Origin: a virus
Virus genome (UHGV): UHGV-0797471
DNA: 42,236 nucleotides
Strand: one strand, 5' to 3'
Both the position numbers and the translations under genes were made by a program. Below, piece after piece: positions 1 to 42,133 of the stretch (position 1 is its first letter; the number at the start of each line of letters is the position of its first letter). The notes under the pieces were generated by a model, which made no database searches, had not been told where the DNA came from, and worked only from the letters and a program-made list of their open reading frames with translations.

Positions 1-472
1 ATTCTCAATCCTTATCTGCGTAGGCGCAGAAAACAAGCACACACATACAAGTCTTTTCTACGGGACAAAATGCAATGTGTTGCGGCTTTGTGTTACTGGA
101 CTGAGTTTATCAAGGTTAAATACACTGGATCAACATACAGTAAGTTAATGACAGTAAAGCATACAAACTCGATACAACTTACTGATTTTTAAAATGATTT
201 AACGGTAATTCATTGAAATGTCTTTACTAATTACTAAACGCTGTATTAATTGTGATATGTGTGAAATTAAATAAAAATACATTTATTTTCATGGTGATGC
301 AGTAATGTGTTATTGAATGTGTTATTGAATTTATGGTGCAAAAAAATTTTGCATACGTTCAGCAACACAAAGAGCTCCCCTTTCTATAAAGGTTCATTTG
401 AGACTCCCCCTTGACTCCCTCTTCGAAATTGAAGACCATTAACTGTACATAATTACAGTCCTGGATAATATT

Positions 473-739
473 ATGCGCAGAAAAGAATCAAACGTTAGCA
501 GTTTGCCGGAACTCACCAATTTTGAGGTAAGCTATTCCCTAGTTACCAATGAAGTTTACTTGTCTGCATCCTTCACTGATAACATGGCCTGTATACCAAA
601 CTGGCCCTTACAAGAATTTCCGGATCAACTAATATGCATTTCTCGAGCAAAAGCTATTGCCCTAATCGAAGAGCTCCAGAAGACCATCGACTATATGGAC
701 GCAGGAATCGATCGACAATCAGGTAGCCTGCTCCAGTAG
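473..739 (+). CDS. Hypothetical small protein (88 aa) in AT-rich cargo region
   Basis: ORF in six-frame track; no recognisable motif; weak ribosome-binding site; AT-rich context. Confidence 0.25.
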   Translation: MRRKESNVSSLPELTNFEVSYSLVTNEVYLSASFTDNMACIPNWPLQEFPDQLICISRAKAIALIEELQKTIDYMDAGIDRQSGSLLQ

Positions 740-1040
740 CTGGCGAGTTTTATACTCGTTCCCTGCAACAATGGGCTTTTGGTAAGGCACTCACAAATAA
801 GGAATTCGTTAAGGCTTTTGTTCTGGAGACTCTGAAAGATACAAGGAATCAGTTGATGGCTGGTTTGATCATACTAATTAATATATTGTCAAACTCACAA
901 TATATTAATTAGTGGTAGAACATAAAACCGAGTTCTTGACTTTCAATAGCTATTATATGCGATCAACAACCTTAACCATCTCCTTATATTTTATGAGATA
1001 CTCAAACAATTTAAATTTATGAGCAAAGGAAAATAATAAA

Positions 1041-1886
1041 GTGAATAAAAATCCCTGGGATATTCCAGCATGGCACGCTCTGGGCCGAGAAGCATCTTTA
1101 GTTACACAGCTCATTGGTTCTGGGGCAACAGCCATAGGTAAAGCCAATTATGCAGACAAAATAGGTGAATATTACACAGCATTTTTTGGGCTTTCTGTAG
1201 GTTTTGAGAGACTTGCTAAACTAATACTTGTTGCACACTATGCCATTGAACACAAAGGGAAAATGCCTGATGAGAATATTGTAAGAAAATTTGGACATAA
1301 GCTCATTGAATTAACCAACGAGGTTGATAGTATTTCTAAAAAAATGCAACTATCTCTGAGATATTCACGTCCTACACATAAAATTACCTACAAAATACTT
1401 GAATGTTTAGATTCCTTTGCTGATGCCCGACGGGGACGTTACGCAAATTTCTCCTCATTAAGCAGCCCCAATTTAACCAATAATGAACCTATTAATAAAT
1501 GGTGGGGAGAAGTAGCCGAGAGTATCCTTGAAAAACATTATTATTATACAGTTGAACAAAGACGTGTTGAAGAAAATGCTAGGTTTATCAATGCCACTCT
1601 TTCACCGTATACAACGGTCATGTATATGAATGAAAGTACCAACATTATGCAAGACCTTATATCAGCCTCCATCCGTACTGGACAAAATACCATTGTTCAA
1701 AAGTGGGGAAGATTCTATTCTCTTAGCATCGCTCGTTGGCTTGCCACAGTATTAGCAGAACTGTCTGATATAGCTTCTCATAAATATGGAATAATTAGTT
1801 TTTATGGCCTTAGTGAACATTGTTGCAGTTATATAGTTGAAGATAGTTTTTTAAAAAACAGAAAAATATGGCCACTTCGCCAATAG
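1041..1886 (+). CDS. Hypothetical cargo (moron) protein, 281 aa, function unknown
   Basis: GTG start with AAAGGA Shine-Dalgarno about 9 nt upstream; AT-rich compared with tail genes; ends 5 bp from the truncated invertase stop; no family recognised by eye. Confidence 0.5.
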   Translation: MNKNPWDIPAWHALGREASLVTQLIGSGATAIGKANYADKIGEYYTAFFGLSVGFERLAKLILVAHYAIEHKGKMPDENIVRKFGHKLIELTNEVDSISKKMQLSLRYSRPTHKITYKILECLDSFADARRGRYANFSSLSSPNLTNNEPINKWWGEVAESILEKHYYYTVEQRRVEENARFINATLSPYTTVMYMNESTNIMQDLISASIRTGQNTIVQKWGRFYSLSIARWLATVLAELSDIASHKYGIISFYGLSEHCCSYIVEDSFLKNRKIWPLRQ

Positions 1887-29164: not shown

Positions 29165-29839
29165 ATGATTGATACTACCGATATCCTTTCTCAAAACATC
29201 AAGTACCTGATGGACAAAGCCAAGATAAGCTCGATAACTGAGCTGGCACGTCGGTTACAACTGAACCAACCAACGCTACACAGGCTGGTATCAGGAGAGG
29301 TGAAAGATCCGAAATACGCAACGTTAAAGCAGATCGCCGACTACTTCCACGTGTCACCAATAGACCTGGCAGAAAGGAGCCTTCAAGAAATGGAGAAAGA
29401 GGACGCGACGGGTATAAAAACGTATATTTCTCTTAGGTTTAATAAAGTACCTGTTTTGGGAAACACTCAGCTAGGCGTTGGAGGACTTTGGAGCGACACC
29501 CAATATTCAGTAGGTAGCAGTGATGGTTTCATATACTGGCCGACAAAGGATGAAGATGCATACGCCCTGAAATGTGTTGGTGATTCAATGATGCCTAGAA
29601 TCAAAGAGGGTGAGTTCGTAATCGTCGAACCCAACCACGACTACACTCCTGGTGATGAAGTACTTGTGGTTACCCGGGACGGTGAGGTCATGGTTAAAAC
29701 CTTCTTGTTCGAACGCGATGGCCTGTTCCATCTAATGTCTGTAAATGAAGATCATCCACCAGTCAGAGTACCACGCGAAAACATTGAAAAAATCCATTAC
29801 GTGGCGGGGATCGCCAAATCCGCGCTACGCATGTACTAA
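29165..29839 (+). CDS. cI: CI-type prophage repressor (N-terminal HTH, C-terminal S24 LexA-like autopeptidase)
   Basis: HTH ITELARRLQLNQPTLHRLVSG; S24 catalytic motifs GDSMMPRI (Ser) and VMVKTF (Lys); divergent from cro. Confidence 0.85.
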   Translation: MIDTTDILSQNIKYLMDKAKISSITELARRLQLNQPTLHRLVSGEVKDPKYATLKQIADYFHVSPIDLAERSLQEMEKEDATGIKTYISLRFNKVPVLGNTQLGVGGLWSDTQYSVGSSDGFIYWPTKDEDAYALKCVGDSMMPRIKEGEFVIVEPNHDYTPGDEVLVVTRDGEVMVKTFLFERDGLFHLMSVNEDHPPVRVPRENIEKIHYVAGIAKSALRMY

Positions 29840-30214: not shown

Positions 30215-30784
30215 TTACTGGTTGTAAGGATCGTAATCCGTGATTGCCTTCCCCGGATTTTCATCTTCAGCAGGCAGTCTGGCCTCTAAAGCATTTCGGT
30301 TGAACAGATAGGAAGCCCTACAGTGCGAACAAACCATATTAACGGCTCGCCCAAGGCCTGGCTTAATAACCAGACCTTCCGCTTGCAATATAGATTTTCT
30401 CTTTTGCTCGTAGCAATTGGGACAAATATAAACCGGAGATTGGTCAGTATCTGCAGAAAGCTTGCTGCGATAGACCAGAGTACCCCGCATAGGCTGGTAA
30501 AGTTCATAGCTCGCCGCTTCAGCGGCCCAGTTCTCTTGCTTTACTTTCTCATTTTCCAGTTCAACAATTTTCTCCTTAGCCGCAATCAGCAGCTCCTGAA
30601 GCGACATTTGCTGCATCTGAACATCCATTAGCTTATCGAGTAAGGTGTGCGTCTTCTCTTTAACTGCATAGTCGACAGTCAGATTCTGAATCTCTCTTGC
30701 TGCTCCAACCGCGCCTTTAATTGCTCCTCCCACGCCGGATAACGATTCAGTTATCCGGGAAAGAATTCCTTTTTCTTCAGACAT
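30215..30784 (-). CDS. Coiled-coil plus Cys4 zinc-ribbon protein, unknown function (candidate antirepressor/regulatory or exclusion protein)
   Basis: 189 aa; N-terminal heptad-rich region; C-terminal CPNC...x25...CSHC; transcribed toward cI from the divergent promoter region. Confidence 0.5.
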   Translation of the reverse strand: MSEEKGILSRITESLSGVGGAIKGAVGAAREIQNLTVDYAVKEKTHTLLDKLMDVQMQQMSLQELLIAAKEKIVELENEKVKQENWAAEAASYELYQPMRGTLVYRSKLSADTDQSPVYICPNCYEQKRKSILQAEGLVIKPGLGRAVNMVCSHCRASYLFNRNALEARLPAEDENPGKAITDYDPYNQ

Positions 30785-32059: not shown

Positions 32060-33361
32060 ATGCCAGACGTTCATGCACAACTTTCTCCATCATCAGCGCA
32101 TCGATGGATGCGCTGCCCAGGAAGTCTGGCGCTGGAGGCCACACAACCGGATAAAGAAACAACTTTTGCAATCGAGGGCACTGCAGCGCACGCGCTTGCT
32201 GAAAAAGTTCTACGAAACAGGCAAAGCCACCCGGAACACTACGCCGGATGCAATGTTTCTATGTTTCTCGGCTCATACCCCCTTCGCGAAAATCCTGATG
32301 ATACATCTGGCCCACAGGTGGATGATGAAATGGTCGAAGCCGTTGGCCGGTATGTTGATACGGTCTGGACTCTTGCACAGAATAATGAACTATTGGTTGA
32401 ACAACGTGTTGATTTCTCACATATAACGGGTGTGGAAGAATCTTTCGGAACTGCCGACGGCATAATCATCGCTGGTAGCGAATTACAAATCCACGACCTG
32501 AAATATGGCAAAGGCGTCCGCATTGATGCAGAACAAAATGAGCAACTACAACTGTATGCTCTGGGTGCTCTCGAACAATTCAGCATGCTGTATGACTTTG
32601 AGACTGTAAGATTATTTATTCACCAGCCAAGGCTCAACCACGTTTCAGAATGGTCGTTAACCGTGCAGGAACTTCAGTCTTTCGGTAAACGAGCACAGGA
32701 GGCCGCAACCAGTGCGATCCTTGTTCTCAATATTGCTGAATGCGAAGGCATTGAGACACTACCGCTGGAAAACTTCATACCTGGAGAAAAGCAGTGCCGC
32801 TTCTGTAAAGCAAAAGCTATTTGCACTGCCCAGAAAATGCAGCATTTACAAACAGCGGCCAGCGACTTTGAAGATCTGACAAAGCCTGTCAGCGAAATAA
32901 TCACCAATGCCAGCGCACGTGTACCTCTGTTAACCATTGAGCAGCTTGCGGAGATCTATAGCCAGGCCGACTTTATTGAGTCCTGGCTAAAGGCAGTACG
33001 GGACCGGGTTCACAATGAACTCAATGCCGGACATCCGGTACCGGGGTTTAAACTGGTAACAGGAAAACAAGGTAACCGGGCCTGGAGTGATGAAGAGGCA
33101 GCTCGCGCACTTCTGAAGGACCAGTTCAGGTACAAAACTGAAGAAGTATTCGACTTTAAACTTATTAGTCCCACAAAAGCCGAAAAACTTATCAAAAAGG
33201 CCAGTCCACGCCGTTGGTCAAAAGTCGAGGCACTGATAACACGAGCTGATGGTAAACCAACCGTCGTTCCCGAGTCAGACCCACGCCCCGCACTCAATAT
33301 CAACCCTGTAAATGATTTCGACGACGTATCCGACGATACGCTAACCGCAGACCTCATCTGA
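32060..33361 (+). CDS. PD-(D/E)XK nuclease, DUF2800 / Cas4-RecB-like
   Basis: N-terminal [15 protein letters not shown] signature of DUF2800; C-terminal Cys cluster [10 protein letters not shown]; upstream of DUF2815 and PolA as in the known phage module. Confidence 0.7.
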
Positions 33362-33376
33362 TTTAAGGAAATACCC

Positions 33377-33925
33377 ATGAAACTGAAGCTGAACAATGTT
33401 CGTCTGGCCTTCCCGTCTCTGTTTGAAGCTAAAACTGTAAACGGCGAAGGCGATCCGCGTTTCTCCGCAGTATTTTTAATGTCTCCCAAACACCCACAAC
33501 TGGAAGAAATCCGTAAAGCTATGAAGCAGGTAGCGAAGGAAAAATGGGGAGAGAAGTGGGAGCCCATTTATAACCAGCTGGAGAAAAAACTCAATCTGTG
33601 CCTGCATGATGGTGATGAAAAAGCAGAGTATGAAGGCTTCCCCGGCAATTTCTTCCTGAATGCTGCTAACAAAGCGCGCCCAGCTGTTCTTGATCGCGAT
33701 CGTTCGCCACTTATTCAGGCTGACGGACGTCCTTATGCAGGGTGCTATGTAAACGCCGTTATCGATATCTGGGCACAGGACAATAATTTCGGTAAACGCA
33801 TTAATGCCTCACTCGGCGGAGTCCAGTTCCTGCGAGACGGCGATGCATTCGCTGGCGGCGGAGTGGCAAGCGCTGACGATTTCGACGATATCAGCGAAGG
33901 TGCTGATGCTGAAGCACTAATTTAA
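33377..33925 (+). CDS. DUF2815-type phage ssDNA-binding protein
   Basis: MKLKLNNVRLAFPSLFEAK... N-terminus typical of DUF2815; acidic C-terminal tail DDFDDISEGADAEALI. Confidence 0.65.
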   Translation: MKLKLNNVRLAFPSLFEAKTVNGEGDPRFSAVFLMSPKHPQLEEIRKAMKQVAKEKWGEKWEPIYNQLEKKLNLCLHDGDEKAEYEGFPGNFFLNAANKARPAVLDRDRSPLIQADGRPYAGCYVNAVIDIWAQDNNFGKRINASLGGVQFLRDGDAFAGGGVASADDFDDISEGADAEALI

Positions 33926-33977
33926 CCCTACTTCATAGACGCCCGGTTAAACACCGGGCTACTGATTAGGCGTATAA

Positions 33978-34607
33978 TCACTCAGGAATCTTAATCTTTC
34001 TCAATTCTTTATTTAGTTCACAGATCTTTTTCTTAGACGGGAAAGTATCATACATCCAAAAACCAACAGTCTCTAAAACTATTATCATAACCATATACAC
34101 AAGATAATTTAAAAGGCCTTCATTTTGCCCTATGGAAATAATGCAGATAATAGAAAAAAGGGTAAACAGCACAAAACACAGAAAGGAAAACAGACGACTA
34201 ATAATAAATAAAAAACCTGAAAAATCAACATTAATAAAAAACACTCCGTTATCTTTCTCTATATAATTCTGAAGCTTAATCAACTGATTTATATACTGTC
34301 TTTTTTCTAATCTATTGCAAATGTAAATAACATCTCTTCGGTTATAAGAGGATTGCAATTTCAGCGCATCACGAATAATTTTATCATTTATTCTTTTTTC
34401 TATGGCTTTCTTATCCTCCTTATCCAGATAACGTTCATACTTAATTAAATATAAAATTAACTTCTTGACATATTTAGGCTCTTTATACTTATAATTAAAA
34501 ATGATCTTTCTTATCCAGACTCCCATAACAATCAAACATGAAAAAATATATCCAGCTATTTTCTCCAGATGCTCTGTATGGTCAATCAAGTATTGGATCA
34601 TATGCAT
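33978..34607 (-). CDS. AT-rich multi-pass membrane protein (moron; candidate superinfection-exclusion / abortive-infection protein)
   Basis: 209 aa with N- and C-terminal hydrophobic helices and a Lys-rich middle; strongly AT-rich; antisense to the replication operon between the SSB and polymerase genes. Confidence 0.5.
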   Translation of the reverse strand: MHMIQYLIDHTEHLEKIAGYIFSCLIVMGVWIRKIIFNYKYKEPKYVKKLILYLIKYERYLDKEDKKAIEKRINDKIIRDALKLQSSYNRRDVIYICNRLEKRQYINQLIKLQNYIEKDNGVFFINVDFSGFLFIISRLFSFLCFVLFTLFSIICIISIGQNEGLLNYLVYMVMIIVLETVGFWMYDTFPSKKKICELNKELRKIKIPE

Positions 34608-34653
34608 AATTAATCTTTTAATCAGTTAATAGAATAAAAACCTAGGTAAACAC

Positions 34654-36717
34654 ATGTCCAATATACTATGGGGCGACCTGGAAACCTATTGCGAAATCCC
34701 TATTACGAACGGTACCCATGCGTATGCCGAAGGCGTTGAAGTGATGCTTTTCGCATGGGCTATCAACGACGGGCCAGTAAACGTGTGGGATATCACTGCC
34801 GGTGGTGGTATTCCACACGGCTTATACGAAGCAATCGCAGACCCTGAAACCCTGCTTTATTTCCATAACTCTCACTTCGACCGCACCGTTCTGCGTTATG
34901 CAATGCCGCGACTGGCACCGCCAGTCGAACGTTGGCGCGACACGATGGTGCAGGCGCTGGCGCACGGTCTCCCGGGGTCTCTGGGGGAACTCTGCGAAGT
35001 ACTAGGCGTCCCGCAAGACAAAGCGAAGGACAAAGAAGGTAAAGCGCTGATCCAGCTGTTCTGTAAGCCACGTCCGAAAAACAGCAAACTGCGTCGGGCC
35101 ACCAGTAAAACCCATCCGGAAGAATGGCGGCGCTTTGTTGCTTACGCCGGACTGGATATCGAAGCAATGCGTGAAGTCTATAAACGTCTGCCGAAGTGGA
35201 ATTATCAGGGGACAGAGCTGGCGCTCTGGCATCGTGATCAGCAGATCAACGACCGGGGCGTCTGCATGGACATGCAACTCGCGCGCGCTGCGATCGAAGC
35301 GGTAGACCAGGAGCAAAAGCGCCTGGCAAAGCGTACACAGGAAATGACTGATGGCGAAGTGCAGGCAGCCACACAACGGGACGCGTTGATTAAGCACATC
35401 GTTGAATCCTACGGTGTGGAGCTACCAGACATGCAACGCAGTACCCTGGAACGTCGTATGGCCGACCCCGATTTATCATCTGCCGTGAAAGAACTGCTGG
35501 CTATCCGCCTGCAAGCCAGTACTACCAGCACCAGTAAATACAAGGCACTGATGAAAGGCGTAAGCCACGACGGGCGCTTACGCGGTACGCTACAGTTCTG
35601 CGGGGCGTCACGTACCGGTCGTTGGGCCGGACGGCTATTCCAGCCCCAGAACCTTCCCCGCCCTTCACTAAAACAGGAACAAATAGACGAAGGCATCGAA
35701 GCACTGAAAGCCGGATGTGCAGACCTGCTGTTTGACAATATCATGGAACTAACCAGTTCAGCGTTACGTGGCTGCATTATCGCGCCAACAGGCAAAAAAC
35801 TAGTGGTAAGTGACTTGTCAAACATTGAAGGCCGTATGCTGGCATGGCTGGCGGGAGAAGAATGGAAACTGAATGCATTCAGAGAGTATGACGCTGGAAC
35901 GGGTCCGGACTTATATAAACTGGCGTATGCAAAAGCTTTCGATATTGCACCAGATGATGTTGATAAACACATGCGTCAGATCGGTAAAGTCATGGAACTC
36001 GGTCTGGGTTATGGAGGTGGTGTATCGGCTTTCATCACTTTTGCTCTGGTTTACGGTCTCGATCTCGACGAGCTGGCGAACGCCGCACTGCCAAACATTC
36101 CCCGCGATGTTATCCGCGAGGCAAAAAGCTGGTACGACGAATCGGTTAAGCGTAAGTCGACCTTTGGCCTGTCCGAGCGTGTATTCATCGCATGTGACTC
36201 GCTCAAGCGCCTGTGGCGCAGGGCGCACCCGGCGACCTGCGATTTCTGGTACGAGCTGGAGCGCACTGTCCGCACAGCAATCGCCACACCGCAAAAAACA
36301 TTGTATTGCGGCTATCTTAAAATCCGACGTGATGGCGCGTGGCTGCGCATACAGCTACCATCCGGACGCGCTGTATGCTACCCGTCTCCGGTTATCGAAC
36401 AAGGGAATATCACCTACATGGGTGTTAACTCTTATTCGCGTAAATGGCAACGACTCAAAACCTACGGCGGAAAGCTGGTGGAGAACGTCACCCAGGCGGC
36501 CGCCCGCGACGTTCTAGCCAGAAACATGCCGCTGATCGAGGGTGCCGGTTACAGCATTGTGCTAACGGTACACGACGAGGTGATCACCGAAGCACCAGAC
36601 ACAGAAGATTTCAACGATAAAGCGCTTTCCGCGCTTCTCTCCACTAACCCCGAATGGGCACCCGATATTCCGCTGAACGCTGGCGGCTTTGAGGCGTACC
36701 ACTACAAAAAAGATTGA
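34654..36717 (+). CDS. Family A DNA polymerase (Pol I-like with 3'-5' exonuclease domain)
   Basis: N-terminal exo motif WGDLETY; polymerase motifs [16 protein letters not shown] and [11 protein letters not shown]; 687 aa. Confidence 0.85.
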
Positions 36718-36781: not shown

Positions 36782-37543
36782 ATGCAGGAACTAACTGAAA
36801 TGCCGATCAACTATCCATACCCGAGAGAATCTTTTCCTGACTTTTTGAGGGAGTGTGGGTTCACCAATTTTTCCCACGAACAGCGTGAGACTTATGACTG
36901 CTATCGTTTAACGAATGGCGTAATTGTTAACCTTTACACCACCCGGACCATTCAGTTTCAAGGGAACCCTCAAGAACGTCCCAATGTTGAAACTGCAATA
37001 ATGTCCCATTTAGGAACGCCCCCCACGGCAACACCACTAGCCGTAGAACAGCCATCTGAGCTTCCCAAAAAGATATTCATTGTTCACGGCCATGACCATA
37101 CTGCAAAGGAACAACTTGAGCTAATCCTTCATAAACTTGGATTACCAGACCATTTCATTTTGCAGAATACGGGAGGGACTGGACTCACCATTATTGAAGA
37201 GCTTGAACGTGAAATTGGGCAAGGACAAACTGCTACTCGTTTCGGGATTGTTCTTTTGACACCTGATGATATGGGATACTCAAAGCGCGCCGGTGAAGCA
37301 GAAATCCAACCCCGCGCAAGACAGAACGTTGTACTCGAGATGGGTATGCTTCTTTCGTCCTTAGGGCGCAGCAATGTAGCAATCCTTCAGAAACAGCACC
37401 TAGAACAGCCTTCTGATGCTAACGGGATTTTGTATCTGAATTTCAACGACCATGTACGTGAAACAGTTCCTCGTCTAGTGCAACGGTTACAAAATTCTGG
37501 TTTCGAATTTACACAAGCTCAAATAGCTAACGCTTCCTCGTAA
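36782..37543 (+). CDS. TIR-like domain protein (COG4271 / PF10137-type nucleotide-binding TIR-like), with 95-aa N-terminal extension
   Basis: KIFIVHGHD...GIVLLTPDDMGY...ARQNVVLEMGMLLSSLGRSNVAIL matches the hallmark motifs of this family as recalled; AT-richer than flanks; followed by its own terminator. Confidence 0.6.
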   Translation: MQELTEMPINYPYPRESFPDFLRECGFTNFSHEQRETYDCYRLTNGVIVNLYTTRTIQFQGNPQERPNVETAIMSHLGTPPTATPLAVEQPSELPKKIFIVHGHDHTAKEQLELILHKLGLPDHFILQNTGGTGLTIIEELEREIGQGQTATRFGIVLLTPDDMGYSKRAGEAEIQPRARQNVVLEMGMLLSSLGRSNVAILQKQHLEQPSDANGILYLNFNDHVRETVPRLVQRLQNSGFEFTQAQIANASS

Positions 37544-38272: not shown

Positions 38273-39190
38273 ATGGCTAAGCAACAAACGAAAGAAATAA
38301 ACCAAGATGATGTAAAAGACAACAAAAATATGCCACCTCATATATGCGGCATTATTATGCCAATTGCGGACATAGAAGGTTATCCCACTGGACATTGGAG
38401 AAATGTTCATGACATTATTTGTGAAGCATCAAATGATGCCGGATTCAAGGCAAATTTGGTAAGTTCAGATGATGATGTTGCAGTAATACAAAAACGAATT
38501 GTTCAAAATCTTTATGAAAACCCCATAGTTGTTTGCGATATAAGTGCTCGAAACGCTAATGTAATGTTTGAATTAGGAATGCGTCTCGCATTTGACAAAC
38601 CGACCGTAATTATTAAGGACGAGCGCACTCCTTATAGCTTTGACATTTCATCAATTGAACATTTAGAGTACCCTTCGGATTTAAGATACCAATCAATCAA
38701 TTTATTCAAAGAAAGACTTGCGAGCAAGATAAAAGAAACATATTTAAAGTCAGTAACTGATCCTGAATACACAACATTCCTCAAACATTTTGGCACTTTC
38801 AAAGTTGCACAACTAGACCAGAAAGAAGTATCAGAAACTGAGTATCTGGCATCTGAGATTAAAGATATCAAATCATTATTGATATCTCTTAGGGCAACAG
38901 CAACGACAAAATCCAGATTTTTCGACTCACCGAAAAATTACTCGCAGCAGGAAATTGACAACTCTGTAGATATTATTAAAAATGGAGTTGCCAGTTATAC
39001 TATAAGGAGTGAAGGATTTAGTATATCAAAATCAGCACTAGAAAAGTTACGCCAAAGACTACACAACGCAGGATTTCAAGTCGAGCAAATAGTATTGACA
39101 GGAAAAGAAGTAATTATTCATCTGTCATCACCTTTAATAAATGAAGAAGAAAATATTTTTAAAGATGCAATAGTAACAGCACTATTATAA
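38273..39190 (+). CDS. Second TIR-like / nucleoside 2-deoxyribosyltransferase-like fold protein with about 150-aa C-terminal extension
   Basis: IVVCDISARNANVMFELGMRLAFDKPTVII parallels the ARQNVVLEMG core of 36782-37543; clearly AT-rich; own hairpin terminator downstream. Confidence 0.5.
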   Translation: MAKQQTKEINQDDVKDNKNMPPHICGIIMPIADIEGYPTGHWRNVHDIICEASNDAGFKANLVSSDDDVAVIQKRIVQNLYENPIVVCDISARNANVMFELGMRLAFDKPTVIIKDERTPYSFDISSIEHLEYPSDLRYQSINLFKERLASKIKETYLKSVTDPEYTTFLKHFGTFKVAQLDQKEVSETEYLASEIKDIKSLLISLRATATTKSRFFDSPKNYSQQEIDNSVDIIKNGVASYTIRSEGFSISKSALEKLRQRLHNAGFQVEQIVLTGKEVIIHLSSPLINEEENIFKDAIVTALL

Positions 39191-40647: not shown

Positions 40648-40844
40648 GCGAGAAACCCGACGATTTACTCACCCCGGATGAAGTATGCCAAAAGTTAGGT
40701 ATTACACAGAAAACGCTATGTGAGTGGAATATTAAGCATCGTCATCGGGCTATCCTGGCACCAATTCGTTTCAGTGCAAAAGTAGTTCGTTATGAGCGCC
40801 GAAATATCGACGCTTTTATTCAAAAATGTCGCAGCCAGTATTAA
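40644..40844 (+). CDS. AlpA/MerR-type HTH DNA-binding protein (possible excisionase / regulator)
   Basis: 66 aa; LTPDEVCQKLGITQKTLCEW HTH; adjacent to integrase. Confidence 0.55.
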   Translation: MSEKPDDLLTPDEVCQKLGITQKTLCEWNIKHRHRAILAPIRFSAKVVRYERRNIDAFIQKCRSQY

Positions 40845-42133
40845 CCTCGCCGCCGTAGCAATGCCACCTGCGCAAGTATGCTCCGCTCGTGAGCCTCGAA
40901 AGCTTCGCGCTTCAACGCAATCTCTTCCTGTAAAATCTCATCAGAAAAGTCGTAATGTTCTGCCATCGGGTCATCTGACTTGCTGGAGTGGTGAAGGCAA
41001 AGGAGGCTGATTTCCCTTCGGTCTGAGCGGGAATAGCCTCTTTCCTTCATCAAGGCAATAACATTGCTCTTAAGGAATTTACGGCACATCGTATTAAATG
41101 CACCGTCTTTCCCTTTAACAGTCCCATCATGTTTTATTCCTTTTACAGCCCCGTCCGGGCTGTATGTTTTCACCAGCTTATCCAGTGATCGTTTTGAAAA
41201 TGGCTGCATTGGATCACGTGGCTGCAAAAATACATAATCCCTGTTGCACTCAGGAACTGAATCACGCCAGGCTTTCTGCTCGTCGATAATCCGCCGGATC
41301 TCAGGGGTTATCGGCAGGCGGAAAGCCTTTTGTGTTTTCATAGCCCCTCGCATGCCGATAACCCCTTCCGGATAAACAATTTCACCAGCCTCCTCGTGAA
41401 CGTAGTCCCAGCGCAGGTTATGGACATTAATCGGACGAACACCAGTGATGATCATGAAGCGAACAGCATTCTTCTGGTGTACAGAGGTGCAGGCAGCAAC
41501 ATTGAGCCAGAGTCGGGCGATTGATTCAATATCGGTAAAAAGCCGTGTGGGGGTAGGTTTCTGTACGCGGGAGGAAACATAATCATCTGGCAGACTGGCG
41601 GCAACATTGCGGCCGTTGCAAAGAGTAGGTGCGCAGAACTTCCAGAACCGACGGAGCTCGGCAAACAACTCCAGGGCGTTATTGTTCGAGCGAGTAGCGA
41701 TCCACTCGTCCAGCACTTCCACCAGCCGATTGTATGTTACGTCGCTGAACACCTCGCGCTCGCCGAACGTTGCTTTAATCCGGTCGATACGCACCCCGTA
41801 GGTTGTGAAACTGTCCGGGCTCAGCTTCTGCCGGGCGACTTTGGCTTTGAGGTCATCCCGGTACATTTCCAGCGCTGCATGTACGGACTCTGCCCGCAGG
41901 CCACCGTCAGCCATACCTAGCGCTTTTTCGCGCGCCAGCTGGATAGCGAGCTCCGGCCACTCGCCGAGCTTTTTACCTTTGAGGCCCATCTTTTTTGGAA
42001 ACTCGGCGTAAAATGTAACCTTACCGGCTTTGCTGAAATCGATACGGAGATAGTTCTCTTTTTCGTATTTGGAACGGCGAGCCACGCCGGAAGCAGCGAG
42101 GATGATTTTGGCGGCAGCAACACAGATTTTCAT
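40841..42133 (-). CDS. int: Tyrosine integrase (P4-like, divergent)
   Basis: 430 aa; N-terminal arm-binding-like segment (KYEKENYLRIDFSKAGKVTFYAEF...LAREKA); ITGVRP box-I-like motif; C-terminal His/Tyr-containing region; terminal position in prophage. Confidence 0.65.
   Translation of the reverse strand: MKICVAAAKIILAASGVARRSKYEKENYLRIDFSKAGKVTFYAEFPKKMGLKGKKLGEWPELAIQLAREKALGMADGGLRAESVHAALEMYRDDLKAKVARQKLSPDSFTTYGVRIDRIKATFGEREVFSDVTYNRLVEVLDEWIATRSNNNALELFAELRRFWKFCAPTLCNGRNVAASLPDDYVSSRVQKPTPTRLFTDIESIARLWLNVAACTSVHQKNAVRFMIITGVRPINVHNLRWDYVHEEAGEIVYPEGVIGMRGAMKTQKAFRLPITPEIRRIIDEQKAWRDSVPECNRDYVFLQPRDPMQPFSKRSLDKLVKTYSPDGAVKGIKHDGTVKGKDGAFNTMCRKFLKSNVIALMKERGYSRSDRREISLLCLHHSSKSDDPMAEHYDFSDEILQEEIALKREAFEAHERSILAQVALLRRRG

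What the first reader, a model, noticed from the sequence alone, without database searches (positions are those of the whole stretch)
33926..34653. AT-rich antisense membrane-protein gene inserted between SSB and DNA polymerase
Seen in sequence: a 209-aa ORF on the opposite strand to the whole replication operon, much more AT-rich than its neighbours, with hydrophobic helices at both ends and a Lys-rich centre. A perfect 7-bp stem hairpin (GCCCGGT-TAAAC-ACCGGGC, 33938-33956) lies at the junction.

Inference: horizontally acquired moron; membrane proteins in this position are often superinfection-exclusion or abortive-infection factors.
Basis: partly seen in the sequence, partly recalled or inferred. 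Interest (0 to 1): 0.55.

Follow-up and report, generated by a model that had tools for sequence, protein, structure and literature searches.

The report
Swappable prophage membrane-protein gene, likely anti-phage
A small, very AT-rich gene for an inner-membrane protein sits backwards in a swappable slot between two replication genes of an E. coli prophage; it is probably a phage-exclusion or defence gene from an unnamed family, but that function is untested.

Summary
A 209-aa ORF (33978-34607, minus strand; GC 0.287 vs 0.491 for the window, the lowest in 42 kb) fills the gap between the SSB stop codon and the DNA polymerase ATG. The hairpin is real but lies at 33941-33959, 3 nt right of the stated position.

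The window is an E. coli temperate phage (100% identical to vB_EcoM-606R2). In 159 E. coli genomes with the same flanks, homology breaks at the SSB stop and the pol start. The slot holds five different cargos: this gene (67 genomes), a 199-aa distant homologue (13), Nmad5 plus other genes, or BRO-N. It was not seen empty.

The protein has three TM helices, an N-out/C-in topology and a ~90-aa basic cytoplasmic domain. Its family is tiny and restricted to Enterobacterales. It has no Pfam, NCBIfam or PADLOC model and no informative fold match, and shows no homology to SieA or SieB.

Homologues always travel as single genes into other cargo sites:
- a P2-like tail-gene slot;
- next to dGTPase and GAPS4 genes in a lambdoid prophage;
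- next to Septu-like genes and type I R-M in a Serratia island.

DefensePredictor lists it as a predicted, untested defence gene.

Verdict: the moron reading is strongly supported. The exclusion/defence function is plausible (about 0.5) but unproven.

The parts
33978..34607 (-). 209-aa ORF for a 3-TM inner-membrane protein. Predicted N-terminus out; basic ~90-aa cytoplasmic domain; TM hairpin; conserved cytoplasmic C-terminal helix.
   Evidence: The start at M1 is supported by N-terminal conservation in homologues, against the M28 start implied by phrog_10579.
33926..34653 (.). Variable cargo slot between the SSB stop codon and the polymerase start codon. The whole interval is replaced in relatives.
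33941..33959 (.). Perfect 7-bp hairpin (GCCCGGT/TAAAC/ACCGGGC) 16 nt after the SSB stop and 18 nt beyond the ORF's stop, so 3' of both convergent genes. It is shared with the BRO-N cassette, where it is longer and followed by a U-tract.
34631..34660 (-). The only sigma-70-like match upstream of the ORF (TGGACA-18 nt-TATTCT, 9/12). Its -35 overlaps the pol start codon. Weak and unverified.
33377..33925 (+). Left flank: DUF2815 / Enc34-type (Gp2.5-like) ssDNA-binding protein.
34654..36717 (+). Right flank: family-A DNA polymerase.

Best explanation
The interval is a one-gene cargo cassette (a moron) in a recombinational hotspot of a BPP-1-like replication module in an E. coli temperate phage. 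The gene encodes an inner-membrane protein with these parts: a short acidic periplasmic N-tail, TM1, a basic ~90-aa helical cytoplasmic domain with a beta-hairpin, a TM2-TM3 hairpin, and a conserved cytoplasmic amphipathic tail.

I think it is most likely expressed from the resident prophage, with its own promoter reading against the repressed early operon. I think it protects the lysogen from other phages by acting non-enzymatically at the cytoplasmic face of the inner membrane. Of the two usual modes, I favour a block of incoming genome delivery, as with P22 SieA (about 0.3). Infection-triggered membrane permeabilisation, as with SieB or RexB, is less likely (about 0.2).

Shown: the ORF, its composition, the topology signals, the slot and its breakpoints, the family and its contexts, and the lack of homology to known families.

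Inferred: expression in lysogens, any anti-phage activity, and the mode of action.
For: Cassette and hotspot:
- The flanks occur in 159 of 5426 complete E. coli genomes, and 67 of them carry this gene, always in this slot.
- Breakpoints fall at the SSB stop and the pol ATG.
- Alternative cargos are BRO-N, Nmad5 plus an 89-aa 2-TM protein, Nmad5 plus a 229-aa protein, and a 199-aa protein. No empty slot appeared among the records examined.
- The same junction is variable in BPP-1, YeP5, APSE-2 and Acinetobacter phage 4316.

A real protein under selection:
- P(open by chance) is ~3e-9.
- Homologues at 23-43% identity keep the length, the TM pattern and the motifs.
- The 199-aa occupant of the same slot is a distant homologue (hhalign 96.5%, E 7e-10, 190 columns) and is present in 13 more genomes.

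Topology:
- K/R counts are 0 in the N-tail, 22 in the centre, 0 in the loop and 7 in the C-tail.
- The AF2 model built with the family alignment has pLDDT 77.

Non-enzymatic:
- Only N199 and L202 are invariant across the family.

Defence association:
- The Serratia homologue (44% identity) lies between an integrase and a Septu-like PtuB/PtuA pair (PtuA hit E 8e-31) plus a type I R-M S subunit.
- The P0007 homologue lies beside a dGTPase (PADLOC E 5e-144), a GAPS4-type gene and a methylase-HNH pair, upstream of Q in a lambdoid prophage.
- The P0005-type homologue fills the S-V tail-gene slot of P2-like prophages. P2 tail genes contain a reported defence hotspot (PMC13586616).
- This window itself carries a TIR PDC-S35 gene directly after pol.

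Independent prediction:
- DefensePredictor Table S10 lists WP_000551021.1, the allele found in L008/L009/L011, as a 'Predicted novel defense gene'. Mean log-odds is 6.1 against a cut-off of 4. In that study 45% of tested units validated (PMC13092281).

Architectural precedent:
- In P22, sieB lies antisense inside the early-left operon with its own promoter, and sieA lies antisense after gene 16. Both are AT-rich relative to the genome.
- SieA is a 3-TM inner-membrane protein with a conserved cytoplasmic C-terminal motif (PMC10883804).
Against: - There is no phenotype, transcript or protein evidence.
- There is no homology to any known exclusion or defence protein. PADLOC found none for six family members. 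The Pfam SieB, Imm and RexB models were not hit even at E <= 10. hhalign against SieB gave 0.08% and against a SieA family profile 0.24%.
- Fold searches gave only generic helical matches.
- Expression signals are weak: one 9/12 promoter match and no Shine-Dalgarno. At 29% GC the gene could be H-NS-silenced (established knowledge, not tested here).
- The gene is dispensable. It carries a K63 stop in O55:H7 DEC5B and a frameshifted 158-aa form in EPEC C342-62 (P0002).
- DefensePredictor uses neighbouring genes, so it is not fully independent of the prophage context. Its minimum model score for this protein is 2.9, below the cut-off.
- The other cargos in the slot (BRO-N, Nmad5) are not established defence genes.
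Confidence: 0.5

Rival explanations
1. Abortive-infection effector. The cytoplasmic domain senses a phage product, and the three TM helices oligomerise to depolarise or permeabilise the inner membrane, killing the infected cell before phage release (works like SieB or RexB).
For: - Nearly all the soluble mass, and most conserved positions, face the cytoplasm, where a trigger could be sensed.
- A Glu inside TM3 is conserved in the 209-aa-type subgroup.
- The family occurs in generalist defence islands next to Septu-like, R-M and dGTPase genes, and in four kinds of mobile element. That fits a broad-spectrum system better than a blocker tuned to one injection machine.
- The P22 sieB precedent shares the same antisense early-operon placement.
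Against: - There is no homology to SieB or RexB.
- The TM3 Glu is absent from the 199-aa subgroup.
- The family is very narrow taxonomically, whereas general Abi systems are usually widespread.
- Most characterised small multi-TM prophage proteins of enterobacteria block DNA entry rather than abort infection (my own knowledge).
Confidence: 0.2
2. A cargo gene with a role other than anti-phage defence. Examples are another lysogenic-conversion function (envelope or stress physiology, colonisation), an addiction-type membrane toxin, or a modulator of the prophage's own lysis or induction.
For: - No known domain was found.
- Evolution looks relaxed or fast. pN/pS is ~0.38 in the one allele pair with synonymous differences, and other pairs show 3-8 nonsynonymous and 0 synonymous changes. 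The flanking SSB and pol genes give ~0.05-0.14.
- There are occasional pseudogenes.
- One homologue is a lone chromosomal gene between an SLT gene and thrS, with no mobile-element genes in view.
- More than half of DefensePredictor candidates did not validate.
Against: - The repeated placement in recognised phage cargo and defence hotspots, and next to bona fide defence genes, is what defence genes do.
- No partner gene (antitoxin) travels with it in any context.
Confidence: 0.25
3. A replication accessory protein that tethers the phage replisome or DNA to the membrane, in the way phi29 p16.7 does. This would explain its position between the SSB and polymerase genes.
For: - It is located inside the replication module.
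- It has a strongly basic cytoplasmic domain on a membrane anchor.
Against: - It is antisense to the replication operon.
- About half of otherwise near-identical prophages carry unrelated genes in its place.
- Homologues sit in tail-gene, Q-proximal, island and chromosomal contexts with no replication genes.
- It is present in only 3 of 50,697 phage records, although 1247 records carry a related SSB.
Confidence: 0.03
4. Not a functional gene: a fortuitous ORF in AT-rich spacer DNA.
For: Weak translation and transcription signals.
Against: - P ~3e-9 for 209 stop-free codons at this composition.
- Homologues are conserved at full length down to 23% identity, with shared motifs and topology.
- The ORF is annotated as a CDS in 29 of the 30 E. 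coli records listed.
Confidence: 0.02

Closest known systems
P22 SieA (superinfection exclusion protein A; Pfam PF26849)
   Same: - A small inner-membrane protein with an N-terminal TM helix, a charged cytoplasmic segment, a further TM hairpin, and its most conserved motif in the cytoplasmic tail just after the last TM.
- A single gene is sufficient for exclusion.
- AT-rich relative to its phage (0.337 vs 0.471).
- Placed antisense to the adjacent lytic operon.
- Sequence types are highly diverged.

   Different: - No detectable homology: hhalign 0.3% with the single sequence and 0.24% profile against profile.
- Ours is longer (209 vs 162-164 aa), with a larger structured cytoplasmic domain.
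- It occupies a different genomic slot.
- The family is spread over several kinds of mobile element rather than one phage type.
P22 / lambda SieB (Pfam PF14163)
   Same: - The gene is embedded antisense in an early operon with its own promoter, and is expressed from the prophage.
- Membrane-anchored with a cytoplasmic domain.
- About 190-210 aa.

   Different: - No Pfam SieB hit for any family member, while P22 SieB scores 4e-29 against the same library.
- hhalign probability 0.08%.
- SieB has its hydrophobic segment(s) only at the N-terminus, whereas ours has TM helices at both ends.
P2/P4 defence hotspots and other phage cargo ('moron') slots
   Same: - A fixed site between two core genes.
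- Not seen empty.
- Unrelated cargos are swapped between elements with near-identical core genes.
- Pseudogenes are rare.
(PMC13586616; here)
   Different: - A different phage lineage (BPP-1-like replication module) and a different site (SSB-polymerase junction).
- The literature searches run here did not find this hotspot described.
- Most of the cargos in it have no proven function.
DefensePredictor 'predicted novel defense gene' clusters (Table S10, PMC13092281)
   Same: The allele WP_000551021.1 is literally one of the 1,041 listed clusters, with mean log-odds 6.1.
   Different: - It is a prediction only.
- It was not found in the tables of cloned or validated systems, as far as those tables are held as text.
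- Nothing about its structure, slot or family is described there.

Membership tests
SieA (PF26849) | Sequence or profile homology to P22 SieA and its types, including the cytoplasmic FxRYPxEAxxFNK motif. | tested here: not met
   hhalign of the family profile A3 against P22 SieA gave 0.3%, and against a 9-sequence SieA profile 0.24%. The superficial C-terminal NKE[LF]xK resemblance is not supported. The local Pfam copy lacks PF26849, so hhalign is the only test.
SieA (PF26849) | [quoted passage not shown] | not testable with these tools
   Only hydropathy and the positive-inside rule and the AF2 model are available. Fractionation and K+-efflux or DNA-entry assays are needed.
SieB (PF14163) | Match to the SieB profile. 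| tested here: not met
   No hit at E <= 10 for any of 10 family members. The positive control, P22 SieB, scores 4e-29. hhalign 0.08%.
Known anti-phage defence proteins (PADLOC-DB v2) | Match to any of the 5027 defence-protein models. | tested here: not met
   No hits for the window protein or for the L004 199-aa protein, P0004, P0005 and P0007.
Other membrane exclusion/Abi families with Pfam models (T4 Imm, RexB, F TraS) | Match to the family profile. | tested here: not met
   The permissive Pfam scan of 10 members gave nothing for Imm or RexB, and a single noise-level TraS hit (E 0.1, one member).
Phage moron / hotspot cargo | Present or absent, or replaced, at a fixed site between conserved core genes in close relatives. 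| tested here: met
   159 genomes have the flanks and 67 have this gene. Five cargo types occupy the slot, with breakpoints at the stop and start codons.
Phage moron / hotspot cargo | Composition distinct from the surrounding genome. | tested here: met
   GC 0.287 vs 0.491, z -4.0, the lowest region in the window. The same holds for family members elsewhere.
Phage moron / hotspot cargo | Own promoter and terminator; expressed from the repressed prophage. | tested here: inconclusive
   One weak sigma-70-like site. The hairpin 3' of the ORF has no U-tract. Expression is not testable here.
phrog_10579 | Match to the PHROG profile. | tested here: met
   E 7e-107 over residues 28-209. The PHROG has no assigned function.

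The most novel reading that the evidence does not exclude
This protein and its 199-aa relative define a new single-protein, non-enzymatic inner-membrane anti-phage family, unrelated to SieA, SieB, Imm or RexB. It moves as a one-gene cassette between the cargo hotspots of at least four kinds of mobile element. On this reading, the SSB-polymerase junction of BPP-1-like prophages is a previously undescribed defence hotspot, analogous to the P2/P4 hotspots. Its other occupants (Nmad5, BRO-N, an 89-aa 2-TM protein, a 229-aa protein) would then be further untested defence or counter-defence genes.
Probability: 0.4. Interest if true: 0.55.

Novelty: new member of a known kind. Interest (0 to 1): 0.42.

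Why it matters
If the protein does exclude phages, it adds a new, structurally simple family to the short list of membrane proteins that stop infection at the inner membrane, a step that is still poorly understood. The two diverged alleles (209 and 199 aa) in the same slot of near-identical prophages would be a natural specificity-swap experiment. Separately from the protein's function, the sharply bounded SSB-polymerase slot is a ready source of further cargo genes in a prophage lineage present in about 3% of complete E. coli genomes (159 of 5426). If the protein has no anti-phage activity, this is simply one more uncharacterised prophage moron.

Tried and rejected
- **SieA homology through the C-terminal motif.** P22 SieA ends ...YPGEANGFNKEFIKTIK and ours ...FPSKKKICELNKELRKIKIPE. 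I rejected this link after the profile-profile comparison (0.24%).
- **Fold recognition.**
  - The single-sequence AF2 model was poor (pLDDT 53).
  - The alignment-based model was usable (pLDDT 77).
  - Foldseek against BFVD gave nothing at E <= 0.001.
  - The afdb50 library was unavailable.
- **Family libraries.** Pfam at E <= 10, NCBIfam and PADLOC gave nothing meaningful. The Rex-repressor and RbsU NCBIfam hits score 17-19 bits against cut-offs of 198-375, so they are noise.
- **Other reverse-strand membrane proteins in the slot.** The L003 89-aa protein and the APSE-2 179-aa protein are not family members.
- **Transposon-like ends.** There are no convincing direct or inverted terminal repeats. 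The 10-nt GGT(T)AAACAC similarity at the two slot ends is probably chance.
- **Rfam.** No RNA family was found anywhere in the window.
- **Internal start at Met28** (an Esc-like truncated product, as in sieB/esc). Met28 is not conserved in homologues, so I dropped this idea.
- **Literature.** The phage names, the protein accessions in main texts, and DUF2800/DUF2815 hotspot searches returned nothing relevant.
- **The search for related loci with the full family alignment.** It failed because the alignment is too divergent. I reran it with the closer subgroup.

Full report
**1. What is there**

The window is almost an entire E. coli temperate phage. A 3.2-kb stretch around the finding is 100% identical to Escherichia phage vB_EcoM-606R2, -689R2 and -611R5. 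The landmark genes are:
- an S24/HTH repressor at 29165-29839 (+);
- a Prim-Pol/DUF5906 protein, the Q antiterminator, and lysis and structural genes on the minus strand;
- an integrase at 40841-42133;
- a plus-strand early operon carrying DUF2800 (32060-33361), a DUF2815/Enc34-type SSB (33377-33925), a family-A polymerase (34654-36717), a TIR protein, a VRR-NUC protein and an SNF2 helicase.

It holds one ORF, 33978-34607 on the minus strand, of 209 aa.

**2. Checking the observation**

- Composition. The ORF's GC is 0.287 against 0.491 for the window. Every 630-nt window with GC <= 0.30 starts between 33906 and 34097 (z = -4.0).
- Chance. At this base composition, 209 stop-free codons have a probability of ~3e-9.
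- Shape. Hydropathy gives TM1 at ~16-37, TM2 at ~128-159 and TM3 at ~165-187 around a central 90 aa with 22 K/R. Some of the Lys-richness simply reflects AT-rich codons, since 56% of residues are F/L/I/N/K/Y.
- Hairpin. It exists but at 33941-33959, 3 nt to the right of the stated position. It is stable on both strands (-17.0 and -20.4 kcal/mol; z -2.6 and -3.1). It has no U-tract and was not called as a terminator. Such stems are not rare in themselves: 8 hits in the window against 3.4 +/- 2.1 in shuffles.

**3. The slot is a cargo hotspot**

The flanks occur in 159 of 5426 complete E. coli genomes, and 67 of those carry this gene, always in this slot. The remainder carry one of these:
- a BRO-N protein;
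- Nmad5 plus an 89-aa 2-TM protein on the reverse strand;
- Nmad5 plus a 229-aa soluble protein on the reverse strand;
- a 199-aa protein on the reverse strand.

Homology runs up to the SSB stop codon and resumes at the polymerase ATG. I saw no empty slot, and no transposon-like ends.

Each cassette brings its own hairpin immediately after the SSB stop (z -2.6 to -5.9). The window's hairpin and the ~15 nt before it are shared with the BRO-N cassette. There the stem is longer and is followed by GUUUUU, so it looks like a proper terminator. The hairpin is therefore best read as the 3' end structure of the SSB message, with the AT-rich insert proper beginning at about 33960.

The same junction is also variable in distant relatives of the replication module:
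- BPP-1: a 62-aa ORF;
- YeP5: two ORFs;
- Acinetobacter phage 4316: three ORFs;
- APSE-2: a tRNA-Lys plus a tail-anchored coiled-coil membrane protein on the reverse strand.

The APSE-2 protein and the 89-aa protein are unrelated to our family. Reverse-strand membrane proteins have therefore been recruited to this slot at least three separate times.

**4. The protein family**

The family is very small.
- The word-indexed search found three clusters.
- An exhaustive phmmer scan of 1.84 billion representatives found ten, at 26-43% identity and 209-218 aa for the full-length ones.
- A scan of 185,579 species-representative genomes with the closer subgroup found two loci, both Enterobacterales.
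- IMG/VR held 15 loci.
- Only the three vB_EcoM records among 50,697 phage genomes have the protein.

The 199-aa occupant of the same slot is a distant homologue (hhalign 96.5%, E 7e-10, 190 aligned columns). It has its own subgroup in E. coli, Klebsiella aerogenes and Enterobacter and occurs in 13 more E. coli genomes. About half of these prophages therefore carry one or the other allele.

The alignments show these features:
- a conserved N-terminus from Met1, which supports the 209-aa start over the Met28 start implied by phrog_10579;
- a central motif YLxKYxxYLSxxDKxYIKxxINxEIMR...NRxxLIYIxN;
- a Glu in TM3 in the 209-aa-type subgroup;
- a C-terminal PxxxxIxxINxELxK helix that holds the only invariant residues, N199 and L202.

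With no invariant catalytic-type residues, an enzymatic role is unlikely (inference).

Charge distribution predicts an N-out/C-in topology, with almost all the soluble mass in the cytoplasm. The AF2 model built with the family alignment reaches pLDDT 77 and pTM 0.57. It shows TM1, a four-helix domain with a beta-hairpin, a TM hairpin and a terminal helix. Fold searches were uninformative, and afdb50 was unavailable. No Pfam, NCBIfam or PADLOC model matches.

**5. Selection**

Among four alleles, pN/pS is ~0.38 in the window-L008 pair, the one window comparison with synonymous differences. The pairs among window, L010 and L012 show 3-8 nonsynonymous and no synonymous changes. The flanking SSB and polymerase genes give ~0.05-0.14. 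The counts are small, but they point to faster protein evolution than in the core genes.

The gene is dispensable. It has a K63 stop in O55:H7 DEC5B and a frameshifted 158-aa form in EPEC C342-62. Conversely, it is intact in ETEC H10407, where the polymerase is frameshifted.

**6. Contexts elsewhere**

The family always appears as a single gene with no constant partner.
- In P2-like prophages it sits between tail gene S and baseplate gene V: Rahnella (per the record accession), an Enterobacterales MAG, and probably the four IMG/VR contigs with the 38%-identical type, whose contexts I did not check. A defence hotspot within the P2 tail genes is reported in PMC13586616.
- In a lambdoid prophage it lies just upstream of Q, beside a dGTPase (PADLOC E 5e-144), a GAPS4-type gene and a methylase-HNH pair.
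- In Serratia sp. Ag1 it lies between an integrase and a Septu-like PtuB/PtuA pair (PtuA hit E 8e-31), followed by a type I R-M S subunit.
- It is antisense between a PAPS-reductase-family gene and recT in a phage contig.
- It lies beside TraG_N and HTH genes in an ICE-like region.
- It lies in a prophage remnant with Tad2-like and HicA genes.
- Once, it is a lone gene between an SLT gene and thrS.

The genes are AT-rich in every setting: 0.28-0.34 GC in nine of ten contexts, 12-25 points below their flanks. Low GC is therefore a property of the family, not only a trace of a recent insertion.

**7. Comparison with known systems**

The annotated P22 genome shows sieB antisense inside the early-left operon between ral and gene 24, with its own promoter, and sieA antisense after gene 16. 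Their GC is 0.392 and 0.337 against 0.471 for the genome. [quoted passage not shown] That is the closest functional analogue in layout and placement. Membership, however, fails:
- hhalign against SieA gives 0.3% with the single sequence and 0.24% profile against profile;
- hhalign against SieB gives 0.08%, and there is no PF14163 hit, while the P22 SieB control scores 4e-29.

**8. Independent prediction**

DefensePredictor (PMC13092281) lists WP_000551021.1, the allele present in L008, L009 and L011, in Table S10 as a 'Predicted novel defense gene'.
- Its mean log-odds is 6.1 (sd 2.4; range 2.9-9.5).
- It has no HHblits or Foldseek link to known defence.
- The stringent cut-off is 4.
- 42 of 94 cloned units (45%) validated.

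I did not find this cluster in the tables of tested systems, as far as they are stored. The model uses neighbouring genes, so it is not wholly independent of the prophage context.

**9. Interpretation**

Shown:
- a real, conserved, AT-rich gene for a 3-TM membrane protein;
- a sharply bounded, never-empty, swappable slot;
- a small mobile family that keeps landing in cargo and defence hotspots.

Inferred:
- The gene is transcribed from its own promoter in the lysogen, against a repressed early operon. The only candidate is a weak TGGACA-18-TATTCT match whose -35 overlaps the polymerase ATG.
- The protein protects the lysogen against other phages.

I put the anti-phage reading at about 0.5. Within it, I favour a SieA-like block of genome entry at the inner membrane (~0.3) over infection-triggered membrane permeabilisation (~0.2). 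My reason is that most characterised small multi-TM prophage proteins of enterobacteria act that way (my own knowledge) and that the family is taxonomically narrow. Its presence in generalist defence islands pulls towards the Abi reading. A non-defence cargo role remains quite possible (~0.25). A replication role or a spurious ORF is very unlikely.

**10. Verdict**

The 'moron' inference is well supported. The exclusion/abortive-infection inference is plausible but unproven. The find is a new, unnamed member of a familiar kind of element: prophage hotspot cargo, probably a membrane exclusion protein. It is moderately interesting, and most useful as a clean candidate for a plaque-assay test and as a pointer to an undescribed cargo hotspot.

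Noticed in passing
window 36782-37543 (+): A 253-aa TIR-domain protein sits directly after the polymerase. It matches the PADLOC candidate system PDC-S35 (E 1e-108) and Pfam CAP12/Pycsar TIR (3e-31). Close relatives (L003-L005) carry an ANR regulator, DUF4406 or DUF7446 genes at this position instead, so this is a second variable cargo slot in the same operon.
   Followed up: partly
window 38273-39190 (+): A second AT-rich island (GC 0.344) encodes a 305-aa protein between the VRR-NUC and SNF2 helicase genes. It has a weak PADLOC TIR-effector hit (1e-6) and matches phrog_3634, but has no Pfam or NCBIfam match. It is probably another cargo gene.
   Followed up: partly
window 1-1886: The left end of the window is AT-rich (GC 0.35-0.39) and holds a 281-aa ORF (1041-1886, +) with no Pfam, NCBIfam or PADLOC match.
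   Followed up: partly
window 30215-30784 (-): A 189-aa ORF (phrog_1244, function unknown) lies antisense between the repressor gene and the start of the plus-strand early operon. It has a coiled-coil-like N-terminal half and two CxxC pairs near the C-terminus.
   Followed up: no
L002 2427-2470; L003 2437-2457; L004 2436-2468; window 33941-33959: Every alternative cassette begins with its own stable hairpin right after the SSB stop codon. The sequences differ but the position is the same. The BRO-N version has a U-tract and looks like an intrinsic terminator. This suggests a conserved need to end or stabilise the SSB message before the polymerase gene.
   Followed up: partly
L006 1877-2392: In E. 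coli O121 strain 201805972, an HNH endonuclease gene is inserted between the DUF2800 and DUF2815 genes of the same module. This looks like a homing-endonuclease insertion at another junction.
   Followed up: no
L026 4333-4954 (APSE-2): The aphid-symbiont phage APSE-2 carries, in the equivalent SSB-polymerase slot, a tRNA-Lys(UUU) and a reverse-strand 179-aa protein. That protein is made of repeated (S)AEIADVRKDL units with a C-terminal membrane anchor, and is unrelated to the family studied here.
   Followed up: partly
L007 (E. coli O55:H7 DEC5B); P0002 (EPEC C342-62); L008 (ETEC H10407): Natural knock-outs exist. DEC5B has a K63 stop and EPEC C342-62 has a frameshifted 158-aa form. In ETEC H10407 the ORF is intact while the neighbouring polymerase is frameshifted. 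These strains would serve as ready-made controls.
   Followed up: partly
window 33945-33954 and 34645-34653: A short similarity, GGT(T)AAACAC, occurs at both ends of the slot: in the hairpin loop region and just before the polymerase ATG. It is probably chance, but could be a microhomology footprint of the cassette exchange.
   Followed up: no
L013, L016, L018, L020, L021, L023, L029, L030: Family members are AT-rich wherever they occur (0.28-0.34 GC in 9 of 10 contexts, 12-25 points below their flanks), despite protein divergence down to ~25% identity. The low GC therefore seems to be maintained rather than transient.
   Followed up: yes
L029 4805-5404: In the Serratia island, the gene immediately upstream of the homologue is a 199-aa DUF6338 protein of unknown function, between the integrase and the homologue. 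I did not examine it further.
   Followed up: no
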